A stretch of DNA of 60,403 bases from the NCBI GenBank assembly GCA_022840695.1, contig JALHDC010000005.1:1-60403 (forward strand). The letters run 5' to 3'. Positions within the stretch are counted from its first letter, which is position 1. Every line of letters begins with the position of its first letter. The translations under genes and the position numbers were made by a program. Below are positions 20,207 to 21,098 of this stretch, piece by piece. Source of the DNA: a bacterium. Its GTDB lineage: Bacteria > Patescibacteriota > Dojkabacteria > SC72. Below the pieces are notes generated by a model. The model was not told the DNA's origin, did no database searches, and saw only the letters and a program-made list of their open reading frames with translations.

Positions 20207-20984
20207 ATTCAGGAATTATTGTAAATGATGAGATAGCTTTCAAAAGCTTTTTCTTTTCCTTCGTAGTATTCTCGGGTATTTTAAATTTTTTATTTTCTAA
20301 AATTTTCACCAACTTTTTCTCACAACTGTTTTCCGCATATTTTCTTCCATCTTTCTCTCTCATTTGACATGTCACTCCGTAAGCAAGAATATCTGCTAAT
20401 TGTTCTTCTATATCACCATTAGATTTATTTACAAAGGATATAGATGTTATTAGTTTTGACACATCAGCTCCAGATATTTTGAGCTCTGGTATACCATTTG
20501 ATTTAAAGTGATTTAATGCTTCGTGGTAATAATAATCTTTTTCGAGAGAGGATGCTTCTATAACGATTTTTCCAGTACAACCCTTGATGGATATAGTATG
20601 AATTATAAAATTTCGGAATAAGGATCTTGCTACAGTTCTTAGTTTTGTTTTTACAGACCAGTTTCTTTTTGAAACCTCGAACTTTTTCAATATTACAGGA
20701 AATATGACAATGGGTGCATAATTGAGAAGTTTAAAAAGATCAACATTGAATTCTTCTTTTGTTTTTAAATCTTTAAGGTTGTTAAATTGTCCGATACATT
20801 TTCCAATCTCTTGAGAGTGGAAAGTAATAGAATCAGAACCCCAATATTTGTATTTTATTTGTCCTGCAAGTTTATTAAGTTCAGTCCTTTTACTTTCGCG
20901 AATAGAACAACCTACGAGTATATAATACCCAATATTACCATTATGTTGACCAGTTTCATCAATATATAATCTATTAATTTCCAT
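20205..20984 (-). CDS. DUF3800 family protein (RNase H-like fold)
   Basis: N-terminal LYIDETG, central FHSQEI, C-terminal EQLADILAY. Confidence 0.85.
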   Translation of the reverse strand: MEINRLYIDETGQHNGNIGYYILVGCSIRESKRTELNKLAGQIKYKYWGSDSITFHSQEIGKCIGQFNNLKDLKTKEEFNVDLFKLLNYAPIVIFPVILKKFEVSKRNWSVKTKLRTVARSLFRNFIIHTISIKGCTGKIVIEASSLEKDYYYHEALNHFKSNGIPELKISGADVSKLITSISFVNKSNGDIEEQLADILAYGVTCQMREKDGRKYAENSCEKKLVKILENKKFKIPENTTKEKKKLLKAISSFTIIPE

Positions 20985-21004
20985 TTTAGGGGAGTCCTGC
21001 TAGT

Positions 21005-21063
21005 AAAAGAAAACGGAGGACATTCCCTTGGGACAAAACCTTTTGGTAGTTCCTCCATGGTGA
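21005..21063 (-). ncRNA. Candidate structured small RNA / terminated leader upstream of DUF3800
   Basis: AUGGAGGA...UCCUCCGU 8-bp closing stem around a 30-nt interior (ACC-AAAA-GGU, UCC-CAAG-GGA), then UUUCUUUU; 20 nt to the ATG. Confidence 0.55.
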
Positions 21064-21098
21064 TAACCTATTATCACATACAGTAATAATCCAGTCAA
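21060..21098 (-). promoter_or_regulatory. Promoter with overlapping inverted repeat for the sRNA-DUF3800 unit
   Basis: TTGACT (21098-21093), 17 bp, TG-T-GATAAT (21075-21070); GTGATAA-N4-TTATCAC at 21060-21077. Confidence 0.6.

What the first reader, a model, noticed from the sequence alone, without database searches (positions are those of the whole stretch)
20984..21098. Promoter-driven ~58-nt multi-stem RNA directly upstream of DUF3800
On the minus strand, TTGACT-N17-GATAAT precedes AUGGAGGA-ACUACCAAAAGGUUUUGUCCCAAGGGAAUG-UCCUCCGU-UUUCUUUU. The 8-bp closing stem encloses 30 nt with two short potential hairpins (or a pseudoknot), more complex than an ordinary terminator. The GH18 stop lies at 21109, upstream of the promoter. 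An alternative reading is a 48-aa uORF from ATG 21058 (MEELPKGF...IIYS*) overlapping DUF3800 out of frame.
Basis: partly seen in the sequence, partly recalled or inferred. Interest (0 to 1): 0.78.

Follow-up and report, generated by a model that had tools for sequence, protein, structure and literature searches.

The report
Conserved promoter-hairpin unit, not DUF3800-specific
The promoter and the short hairpin with its U-tract are real and conserved in related Dojkabacteria genomes, but they belong to the end of the gatA-GH18 operon at the edge of a variable gene slot, not to DUF3800, which merely landed behind them here.

Summary
On this sequence alone none is statistically unusual: promoter-like hits are at shuffle level, fold z is -1.0 to -1.35, and the interior forms only 2+2 weak pairs.

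Comparison with relatives changes the picture.
- About 165 DUF3800 loci, including the 8 nearest lineages, have no such upstream element. The nearest ones carry a TATAAT 5-8 nt before the ATG (leaderless type).
- No Rfam family, including the DUF3800 motifs, matches.
- Four Dojkabacteria lineages syntenic for gatA-GH18 share the -35 TTGACT, a variable 17-nt spacer, TGTGATAAT and TATCAC, followed by a hairpin and a T-run.
- One lineage about 79% identical overall has a 52-nt exact match to the window's hairpin. Its neighbour there is a convergent NYN gene, not DUF3800.
- Two other lineages carry a different hairpin interior, and two lack the element.

Best reading: a resident promoter-plus-terminator-hairpin unit (a candidate ~60-nt RNA) at the boundary of a variable accessory-gene slot next to tRNA-Lys. 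Here it was co-opted as the promoter and attenuating leader of an inserted DUF3800 gene. Its function is not shown. Interest is modest.

The parts
21099..21111 (-). GH18 stop codon (TAA, 21111-21109) and an A/T-rich tract (TAATTAAATATCA) just upstream of the -35. It resembles an UP element.
   Evidence: The tract is largely invariant in the 4-lineage alignment. The UP-element role is inferred.
21093..21098 (-). -35 hexamer TTGACT.
   Evidence: Invariant in the window, L180, L168 and L176.
21079..21092 (-). Promoter spacer. Its length is fixed so that the hexamers are 17 nt apart, but its sequence varies.
   Evidence: only 3 of 12 spacer columns are invariant. Identity to L180 is 64%.
21070..21078 (-). 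TG-extended -10, TGTGATAAT.
   Evidence: flags the TG. It is 9/9 identical in all four lineages.
21060..21077 (-). Inverted repeat GTGATAA-tagg-TTATCAC overlapping the -10 and the predicted start site. Candidate operator.
   Evidence: 6-8-bp arms are kept in all four lineages while the centre varies. It is found nowhere else in the window or in 183 loci. The operator role is inferred.
21061..21064 (-). Predicted transcription start, 6-9 nt after the -10 (A21064 or A21061).
   Evidence: Inferred from standard sigma-70 promoter geometry. Not testable with these tools.
21013..21058 (-). Hairpin. An 8-bp closing stem (AUGGAGGA 21058-21051 / UCCUCCGU 21020-21013) encloses 30 nt.
   Evidence: -15 kcal/mol, z -1.0 to -1.35. 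A 52-nt exact run (21066-21015) is shared with L180-183.
21005..21012 (-). U-tract UUUCUUUU after the stem. Together with the hairpin it looks like an intrinsic terminator.
   Evidence: Homology to the relatives ends right after the 3' arm.
20985..21004 (-). Rest of the DUF3800 leader. It contains a Shine-Dalgarno (SD)-like AGGA (20998-20995) that can pair with GUCCU of the hairpin's 3' arm in a read-through RNA.
   Evidence: pairing probability about 0.9 in the 100-nt read-through RNA. The fold of this region has z = 0. It has no -10 box near the ATG, unlike the nearest homologues.
20205..20984 (-). DUF3800 gene (259 aa). It is intact and is the occupant of the variable slot in this genome.
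   Evidence: Pfam PF12686, E 2.8e-07. All family-invariant residues are present. Relatives carry other genes in this slot.
20020..20095 (+). tRNA-Lys(UUU), the far boundary of the variable slot.
   Evidence: The same tRNA bounds the slot in L168, L174, L176, L178 and L180.

Best explanation
The element is a resident small transcription unit of one subgroup of Candidatus Dojkabacteria. It is not a DUF3800 RNA.

Its parts are a near-consensus sigma-70 promoter and a short hairpin. The promoter has an A/T-rich upstream tract, TTGACT, a 17-nt spacer and TGTGATAAT. A small palindrome that looks like an operator overlaps the -10. About 6 nt after the predicted start the transcript enters a G/C-stemmed hairpin followed by a U-run. 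The predicted product is an RNA of about 55-60 nt.

The unit lies between the end of the gatA-GH18 operon and a variable accessory-gene slot that ends at tRNA-Lys. In the relatives that have it, the next gene is a convergent NYN-domain (PIN-like RNase) gene. That gene's stop codon lies 1-7 nt from the hairpin. The short RNA would therefore be complementary to the 3' end of the NYN mRNA, and the hairpin would separate the two converging transcripts.

In this window the NYN gene is absent. A DUF3800 gene occupies the slot in the same orientation as the unit. This DUF3800 copy lacks the TATAAT-next-to-ATG promoter of its nearest homologues. It is therefore most likely transcribed from the resident promoter, or by read-through from GH18, and must pass through the hairpin and U-tract. 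These would then act as an attenuating leader that keeps expression low.

Shown: the sequence anatomy, the conservation pattern, the synteny and the absence of the element from other DUF3800 loci.
Inferred: promoter activity and start site, termination, any antisense effect on NYN, and read-through expression of DUF3800.
For: 1. Promoter signature across four lineages (window/L150, L180-183, L168-173, L176-177). The -35, TGTGATAAT and TATCAC are invariant. Only 3 of 12 spacer columns are invariant, and the hexamer spacing is always 17 nt.

2. Conservation of the hairpin core.
- The 52-nt core 21066-21015 is identical in L180-183.
- The 4.3-kb syntenic alignment is 79% identical overall, GH18 63-70% and the spacer 64%.
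- Only 28 of 4261 51-nt windows are 100% identical.

3. The second hairpin type (version B, in L168 and L176).
- It sits at the same distance from the promoter and folds well (z -3.5 and -4.0).
- L168 and L176 differ only by a 1-nt loop insertion and a U.G to U-A change in the inner stem.
- By my manual register, the closing pair next to the shared GGAG/CUCC core is U.G in the window, U-A in L180 and G-C in L168 and L176 (sequences).

4. Independence from DUF3800.
- No similar upstream sequence in 149 DUF3800 loci or in the nearest homologues.
- The 8 nearest lineages have TATAAT 5-8 nt before the ATG, or TATAAT 2 nt before it in L156. The window and L150 have none.
- No Rfam hits.

5. Contents of the slot between the hairpin and tRNA-Lys.
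- Window: DUF3800.
- L176: a 161-162-aa NYN.
- L168: NYN plus a 162-aa protein.
- L180: NYN plus 163-aa, 120-aa and DUF2726 proteins.
- L174: an unrelated 197-aa NYN.
- L178: a 164-aa protein.

6. Sigma-70-type promoters precede several tRNA genes of this genome, clearest for tRNA-Thr, -Lys, -Gln and -Phe.

7. Hairpins with long loops followed by U-runs occur elsewhere in the window as terminator-like sites, for example 20164-20196 (+) after tRNA-Lys.
Against: - There is no transcript evidence, so start and end points are predictions.
- Only four independent lineages carry the element, and two of them are identical to each other in the hairpin. Covariation is therefore almost nil. RNAalifold on versions A and B gives only -1.89 kcal/mol.
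- The window's hairpin is thermodynamically unremarkable (z -0.5 to -1.35). Its 30-nt interior makes it a poor textbook terminator, and the standard scan did not call it one.
- Two 51-nt-plus exact runs elsewhere in the same alignment show that the identity with L180 is unusual but not unique. A short recombination tract could also produce it.
- Versions A and B share almost nothing inside the stem. That is not expected for a trans-acting RNA with a conserved seed.
- L174/175, the closest GH18 relative (94%), and L178/179 lack the promoter altogether. The unit is therefore dispensable.
- The short RNA shows no above-chance pairing with the NYN translation start (z about 0).
Confidence: 0.45

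Rival explanations
1. Plain terminator. The hairpin and U-run only end the gatA-GH18 transcript, and in relatives they also separate it from the convergent gene. The conserved promoter-like block is a protein-binding site, or a promoter of no consequence. The short RNA has no role of its own.
For: - The element sits directly after the GH18 stop.
- L178/179 have an unrelated long-loop hairpin (z -5.3) at the same place and no promoter.
- Long-loop hairpins followed by U-runs occur elsewhere in the window.
- The two hairpin versions share only the G/C stem and the U-run, which is all a terminator needs.
- In L180 and L168 part of the T-run is simply the complement of the NYN C-terminal codons for LEK-stop.
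Against: - A terminator does not explain invariant TTGACT and TGTGATAAT with a variable 17-nt spacer.
- It does not explain a 30-nt interior identical in two lineages whose spacer is 64% identical.
- L174/175 manage with a 36-nt gap and no strong hairpin.
- DUF3800 in the window has no other recognisable promoter.
Confidence: 0.25
2. Nuclease-partner RNA. The small RNA works together with whichever accessory nuclease lies beside it: NYN in relatives, the RNase H-like DUF3800 here. This would resemble the unexplained RNA-protein pairings reported for the DUF3800-I, drum and skipping-rope RNAs, or an RNA antitoxin. It is the first reader's idea in a broader form.
For: - The element occurs with the 161-162-aa NYN in 3 of 3 lineages that have that gene, and is absent from the 2 lineages that lack it. 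The window pairs it with DUF3800.
- DUF3800 has a predicted RNase H-like fold (PMC10910872 and PMC7736814).
Against: - With six lineages the association is not significant (Fisher one-sided p = 0.2, my own arithmetic).
- No other DUF3800 locus has the element.
- There are no tandem repeats of the kind seen in type III systems.
- No Rfam DUF3800, drum or skipping-rope match.
- No pairing with the NYN start region.
- Simple adjacency to a variable slot explains the pattern.
Confidence: 0.1
3. Leader peptide. The ATG at 21058 starts a short translated ORF on a nearly leaderless transcript. Ribosomes moving through the hairpin open it and couple translation to read-through into DUF3800.
For: - The ATG lies 3-6 nt after the predicted start site, and the nearest DUF3800 homologues appear to use leaderless-type starts.
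- The ORF spans the hairpin and the DUF3800 start.
Against: - The ORF is 48 aa here but 18 aa in L180, by hand translation of the sequence.
- The shared 15 codons show no synonymous change, which points to a nucleic-acid constraint rather than a protein one.
- The version B sequences L168 and L176 have no ATG at that position and differ by a frame-shifting 1-nt indel.
- No Pfam hit.
Confidence: 0.05
4. DNA-level site. The palindrome and hairpin act as a recombination or protein-binding site that marks the edge of the slot where accessory genes are exchanged.
For: - Homology between the window and its relatives ends exactly at the 3' arm of the hairpin, and the slot's other edge is tRNA-Lys.
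- Hairpin versions do not follow GH18 similarity. The window's GH18 is closer to L168 (81%) than to L180 (62%), yet the window shares L180's hairpin.
- A 10-nt near-repeat, CACCATGGAG / CAACATGGAG, flanks the DUF3800 segment (D20).
Against: - No integrase or transposase gene appears among the called genes of the slot in any locus.
- No copy of the tRNA 3' end was seen at the other edge (my reading of the sequence).
- The 10-nt repeat is within chance, and the tool itself warns about short two-copy families.
Confidence: 0.07

Closest known systems
Short cis-antisense RNAs convergent with a gene's 3' end. Examples from my own knowledge: phage lambda OOP RNA opposite cII, and the Bacillus subtilis RatA/txpA and SR4/bsrG pairs.
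   Same: In L180, L168 and L176 a strong promoter fires a very short, hairpin-terminated transcript towards a convergent gene. That gene's stop codon is 1-7 nt from the hairpin, so the two RNAs would be complementary at their 3' ends.
   Different: In the window there is no convergent gene. The NYN protein is a 161-aa RNase-like protein, not a small membrane toxin. No expression or processing data exist.
Rho-independent (intrinsic) terminator or promoter-proximal attenuator
   Same: G/C-containing stem followed by a U-run at the end of an operon. In the window it also lies between the only recognisable promoter and the DUF3800 start.
   Different: The 30-nt interior is far larger than the 3-8-nt loops of typical terminators, so the standard scan missed it. 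The interior sequence is conserved, which a terminator does not require. No sensing element or alternative anti-terminator is conserved.
DUF3800-I to DUF3800-XI RNA motifs (Weinberg et al. 2017, PMC5737381; Rfam)
   Same: A small structured RNA candidate next to a DUF3800 gene. Several of those motifs also end in terminators.
   Different: No covariance-model match even at E <= 10. The element is not found beside any other DUF3800 gene. It is found without DUF3800 in syntenic relatives.
Type III toxin-antitoxin RNA (ToxI/ToxN type; from my own knowledge)
   Same: Promoter, then structured RNA, then a terminator-like hairpin, then a putative nuclease gene on the same strand.
   Different: It is a single copy, not a tandem repeat array. 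DUF3800 is unrelated to ToxN. The RNA is not linked to the gene in other genomes.

Membership tests
Rfam DUF3800-I..XI RNA motifs | Match to the family covariance model at or near the gathering score | tested here: not met
   No hit at gathering score in the window. No hit at E <= 10 in 20500-21500. No non-tRNA hit in the syntenic relatives.
Rfam DUF3800-I..XI RNA motifs | Recurrent association with DUF3800 genes across genomes | tested here: not met
   No similar sequence near about 165 DUF3800 loci. No non-tRNA Rfam hit in 20 related DUF3800 loci. The identical hairpin occurs in L180-183 without DUF3800.
Sigma-70-type promoter | -35 and -10 hexamers close to consensus at 16-18-nt spacing | tested here: met
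   TTGACT-17-GATAAT, 10 of 12 matches, with TG upstream of the -10.
Sigma-70-type promoter | Hexamers conserved, spacer free to vary at constant length | tested here: met
   Four lineages: the hexamers and TG are invariant, 3 of 12 spacer columns are invariant, and the spacing is always 17.
Sigma-70-type promoter | A mapped transcription start site | not testable with these tools
   No transcript data are available.
Intrinsic (Rho-independent) terminator | G/C-rich stem immediately followed by a U-run | tested here: met
   An 8-bp stem (4 G-C, 3 A-U, 1 G.U), then UUUCUUUU.
Intrinsic (Rho-independent) terminator | Short loop (about 3-8 nt) and a compact hairpin | tested here: not met
   The 30-nt interior has only 2+2 weak pairs. 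The consensus scan did not report it. Other candidate terminators in this window do have 15-23-nt loops.
Intrinsic (Rho-independent) terminator | Transcript 3' ends map to the U-run | not testable with these tools
   No Term-seq or RNA-seq data.
Cis-regulatory leader or riboswitch of the downstream gene | Conserved position in the 5' UTR of the same gene family | tested here: not met
   In every relative the downstream gene is a convergent NYN gene. DUF3800 homologues lack the leader.
Cis-regulatory leader or riboswitch of the downstream gene | Conserved structure supported by covariation | tested here: inconclusive
   One closing pair shows U.G, U-A and G-C (manual register). RNAalifold consensus is only -1.89 kcal/mol on four sequences.
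Type III toxin-antitoxin (ToxIN-like) | Tandem array of antitoxin RNA repeats upstream of the toxin gene | tested here: not met
   No tandem repeats in 20000-21400. The core is single-copy in the window.
Type I toxin-antitoxin or cis-antisense pair | Antisense RNA overlapping the partner mRNA | tested here: not met
   In the window no gene lies on the opposite strand of the element. In L180, L168 and L176 the geometry would allow overlap with the NYN 3' end, but that concerns the relatives.
Type I toxin-antitoxin or cis-antisense pair | Small hydrophobic toxin peptide | tested here: not met
   The neighbours are a 259-aa DUF3800 protein or 161-162-aa NYN proteins.

The most novel reading that the evidence does not exclude
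The ~60-nt RNA is a dedicated partner, either a regulator or a substrate-like cofactor, of interchangeable accessory nucleases (NYN or DUF3800) that occupy the adjacent slot in either orientation. This would be a candidate phyla radiation (CPR) counterpart of the unexplained DUF3800/drum/skipping-rope RNA-protein associations. The hairpin interior (version A or B) would specify the partnership.
Probability: 0.1. Interest if true: 0.7.

Novelty: new member of a known kind. Interest (0 to 1): 0.35.

Why it matters
If the unit is transcribed as predicted, it would be an unannotated small RNA or attenuator in Dojkabacteria. This phylum belongs to the candidate phyla radiation (CPR). My two literature searches turned up no experimental work on non-coding RNAs in these bacteria.

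It also marks a recombination-prone slot next to tRNA-Lys, where nuclease-type accessory genes (NYN, DUF3800, DUF2726) are swapped.

For annotation, the main lesson is a negative one. A hairpin upstream of a DUF3800 gene should not be read as a DUF3800 RNA motif without checking synteny. Here the RNA belongs to the neighbouring operon's flank, and the DUF3800 gene is the newcomer.

Tried and rejected
- Rfam. No non-tRNA family reached gathering score in the whole window, and none reached E <= 10 in the 1-kb region with any credibility. The only hit overlapping the element is caiA at 18 bits against a gathering score of 55.5. The other hits, two CRISPR direct-repeat models, lie inside GH18 at 21259-21286. 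All were dismissed. Relatives gave tRNAs only.
- BLAST of the intergenic region against 149 DUF3800 loci. Only the coding start matched.
- A trans-acting RNA targeting the NYN or DUF3800 translation start. Duplex energies are at shuffle level, z about 0 for NYN and -1.1 for DUF3800.
- Tandem or flanking repeats that would indicate a type III array or a target-site duplication. No tandem repeats were found, and the only flanking repeat is a 10-nt near-match within chance.
- A remnant of the NYN gene beside the element in the window. None was found.
- A shared consensus structure for versions A and B. RNAalifold gives -1.89 kcal/mol, partly because MAFFT offsets the 3' arms by one column.
- More instances of the element. 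Viral contigs gave nothing for the core, for the promoter pattern, or for GH18 or NYN relatives.
- My first palindrome pattern had the wrong spacing and found nothing. Both were redone.
- Window against L150 (98.4% identical). There are 0 changes in the 124-nt intergenic region against about 2 expected, which is uninformative.
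Full report
**What is in the sequence**

Reading the minus strand, the order is:
- gatA (23713-22265).
- A GH18 glycosyl hydrolase (22257-21109, stop TAA at 21111-21109).
- An A/T-rich tract.
- TTGACT (21098-21093), a 17-nt spacer and TGTGATAAT (21078-21070).
- An inverted repeat, GTGATAA-tagg-TTATCAC (21077-21060).
- A hairpin with arms AUGGAGGA (21058-21051) and UCCUCCGU (21020-21013) around 30 nt.
- UUUCUUUU (21012-21005).
- A 20-nt stretch with an SD-like AGGA (20998-20995).
- The DUF3800 ATG (20984; gene to 20205).
- tRNA-Lys on the other strand (20020-20095).

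The 48-aa ORF from 21058 exists. Best protein matches are to Candidatus Dojkabacteria.

**Is it more than chance in this sequence alone?**

No.
- The promoter scan finds 27 sites in 4.5 kb against 23.7 +/- 5.1 in shuffles.
- GGAGGA-N20-40-TCCTCC is expected 0.05 times per window.
- The hairpin folds at -15 kcal/mol with z = -1.0 to -1.35. With the downstream leader included, z = 0.0.
- Inside the 8-bp stem the minimum-energy fold has only two 2-bp helices. The 'multi-stem or pseudoknot' description is therefore not supported.
- The standard terminator scan does not call it because of the long loop.
- A relaxed scan of the window shows other hairpins followed by U-runs with loops of 15-23 nt. 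One lies after tRNA-Lys at 20164-20196 (+). Long loops are therefore not exceptional in this genome.

**Is it a DUF3800 RNA?**

No.
- Rfam, which contains the DUF3800 motif families, gives no hit in the window at gathering score. It gives no hit at E <= 10 in the surrounding 1 kb.
- I collected 149 loci encoding relatives of this DUF3800 protein from genomes and metagenomes. I added the contigs of the closest homologues.
- BLAST of the intergenic region against the 149 loci matches only the coding start.
- The nearest homologues (55-65% identity, 8 lineages) have a different layout. The upstream gene ends in a compact G/C terminator, followed by an A/T-rich stretch. A TATAAT then ends 5-8 nt before the ATG in seven of them and 2 nt before it in L156. 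This is a leaderless type of start.
- Only the window and its 99% twin L150 lack that box.
- Twenty related DUF3800 loci give no Rfam hit other than tRNAs.

**Where the element really belongs**

I then followed the GH18 gene to syntenic contigs.

Four lineages share the sequence after the GH18 stop: window/L150, L180-183, L168-173 and L176-177.
- TTGACT, TGTGATAAT and TATCAC are invariant.
- Only 3 of 12 spacer columns are invariant, and the hexamer spacing is always 17 nt.
- The 4 nt between the -10 and TATCAC vary.

This is the pattern expected of a working sigma-70 promoter. Sigma-70-type boxes also precede several of the window's tRNA genes, clearest for tRNA-Thr, -Lys, -Gln and -Phe. The inverted repeat GTGATA(AT)...(AT)TATCAC is kept in all four and occurs nowhere else in the data. 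I read it as a possible operator. That is inference.

**The hairpin in relatives**

The hairpin comes in two versions.
- Version A is in the window and in L180-183. It is identical over a 52-nt run (21066-21015). The 4.3-kb syntenic alignment is 79% identical overall, GH18 63-70% and the promoter spacer 64%. Only 28 of 4261 51-nt windows are fully identical, and two other exact runs are longer.
- Version B is in L168 and L176. It has the same G-rich 5' arm and C-rich 3' arm at the same distance from the promoter, but an unrelated interior of 31-32 nt. It forms a good inner helix (z = -3.5 and -4.0).
- L168 and L176 differ by one extra U in the loop and by a U.G to U-A change in a stem pair. 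The indel shifts any reading frame, so version B does not encode a conserved peptide.

In my manual register the shared core is GGAG/CUCC. The pair outside it is U.G (window), U-A (L180) and G-C (L168, L176). A formal consensus fold of A and B is weak, at -1.89 kcal/mol. MAFFT offsets the 3' arms by one column, which contributes to this. With four sequences, covariation cannot decide anything.

**The neighbours**

In every relative that has the element, the next gene is a convergent 161-162-aa NYN-domain gene.
- Its stop codon lies 1 nt (L180) to 7 nt (L168) from the hairpin.
- Part of the T-run there is the complement of the NYN codons for LEK-stop.

Two lineages lack the promoter and hairpin.
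- L174/175 have GH18 at 94% identity, a 36-nt gap and an unrelated 197-aa NYN.
- L178/179 have a different long hairpin and a 164-aa protein. That protein is homologous to the 162-163-aa proteins of L168 and L180.

In all of them the slot ends at tRNA-Lys. The slot holds:
- Window: DUF3800.
- L176: NYN.
- L168: NYN plus a 162-aa protein.
- L180: NYN plus 163-aa, 120-aa and DUF2726 proteins.
- L174: the 197-aa NYN.
- L178: the 164-aa protein.

Homology between the window and L180 stops right after the 3' arm of the hairpin. No NYN remnant lies beside the element in the window. The element is therefore a fixture of the GH18 flank at the edge of a variable slot, and DUF3800 is the local occupant.

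**How it most likely works**

Shown:
- The anatomy, the promoter-type conservation and the conserved hairpin at a fixed distance.
- The variable slot.
- The absence of any other promoter-like box before DUF3800.

Inferred:
- The promoter fires at about 21061-21064.
- The transcript folds into the hairpin and mostly ends in the U-run, giving an RNA of about 55-60 nt.
- The same hairpin ends the gatA-GH18 transcript.
- In the relatives the short RNA is complementary to the 3' end of the NYN mRNA. This geometry resembles lambda OOP/cII or B. subtilis RatA/txpA (from my own knowledge).
- In the window DUF3800 is expressed only by read-through, so the hairpin acts as an attenuating leader.

In a modelled read-through RNA, the 3' arm (GUCCU) pairs with the SD-like AGGAC with probability about 0.9, and CCAU pairs with the start codon. 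This would further damp translation. However, the region's fold has z = 0 and this part is not conserved in relatives, so I give it little weight.

**Rivals**

- A plain terminator with an incidental or protein-binding conserved block remains plausible (0.25). It explains versions A and B and the L178 hairpin. It does not explain the promoter pattern or the identical interior.
- A nuclease-partner RNA is the most interesting reading that is not excluded (about 0.1). It fits 'NYN or DUF3800, either orientation' and echoes PMC5737381. DUF3800 is predicted to have an RNase H-like fold. However, six lineages give Fisher p = 0.2 (my arithmetic), and adjacency to the slot explains the pattern.
- The leader-peptide reading (0.05) is weakened by the different ORF lengths, the lack of synonymous change and the version B indel.
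- A DNA-level recombination site (0.07) fits the sharp homology break and the mismatch between hairpin version and GH18 similarity. It has no recombinase and no significant repeats.

**Comparison with what is known, and novelty**

- The element works most like a promoter-proximal terminator or attenuator. In relatives it resembles a short convergent antisense RNA.
- It fails the tests for the Rfam DUF3800 motifs, for a riboswitch-type leader and for type III and type I toxin-antitoxin RNAs. See the membership table.
- It is not in Rfam, and two literature searches found no description of it.
- I file it as a new member of a known kind: a small promoter-plus-hairpin transcription unit, or candidate sRNA.

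**Verdict**

The promoter reading gains real comparative support, and the DUF3800 link is refuted. Interest is modest (0.35). It would rise if transcript data or a wider genome survey showed a specific partnership with the adjacent nucleases.

Noticed in passing
window 20096-21012, with L168, L174, L176, L178 and L180: The stretch between the GH18-flank hairpin and tRNA-Lys is a variable accessory-gene slot. It holds DUF3800 here, and NYN, an unrelated 197-aa NYN, a 162-164-aa family without Pfam hits, a 120-aa protein or DUF2726 in relatives. No integrase was seen.
   Followed up: partly
L001:466-482, L151/L155, L157/L161, L162, L163, L164/L167, L070, L156: The nearest DUF3800 homologues have a perfect TATAAT ending 5-8 nt before the ATG (2 nt in L156) and no SD. 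This suggests leaderless mRNAs in these Patescibacteria. Of 93 distinct upstream regions, 38 have a 5-6/6 -10 box at that distance.
   Followed up: partly
window 21060-21077: The inverted repeat GTGATAA-N4-TTATCAC overlaps the -10 and the predicted start site. It is kept in all four lineages and is unique in the data. It may be an operator for an unknown regulator.
   Followed up: partly
window 20160-20197: A hairpin, GGCAAC-21 nt-GUUGCC. On the + strand it is followed by UUCUUUUUU, so it is a likely tRNA-Lys terminator. On the - strand it lies just after the DUF3800 stop. It is another long-loop terminator-like site.
   Followed up: partly
window 24281-24339 and 23649-23715: These are the two longest exact runs shared with L180 (59 and 67 nt). 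The first covers the 42 nt upstream of the PAP2 gene start plus its first codons. The second covers the start of gatA. The first may contain another conserved promoter or leader.
   Followed up: no
window 39450-39782 (+): A tblastn match (37.5% identity, E 1e-18) to the 197-aa NYN protein of L174. It lies just downstream of tRNA-Gly(UCC) at 39077-39151, so it is another NYN gene next to a tRNA.
   Followed up: no
window 20185-20194 and 21053-21062: A 10-nt near-repeat (CAACATGGAG / CACCATGGAG on the minus strand) flanks the hairpin-plus-DUF3800 segment, 868 nt apart. It is within chance for a two-copy family.
   Followed up: partly
window 20985-21003 against L168:5226-5250: The window leader ACTAGCAGGACTCCCCTAAAA loosely resembles the 3' half of the version B hairpin, ACTGCAGGCAACACTCCCATTTT. 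I compared them by eye: 14 matches with gaps. It could be a remnant of a version B site or chance.
   Followed up: no
window 25181-33325 (-) and 24547-25209 (-): A 2714-aa repetitive surface protein with an LPSTG motif near its C-terminus, next to a 220-aa ORF. The equivalent ORF in L168 and L180 is a sortase, and the same arrangement is syntenic there.
   Followed up: no
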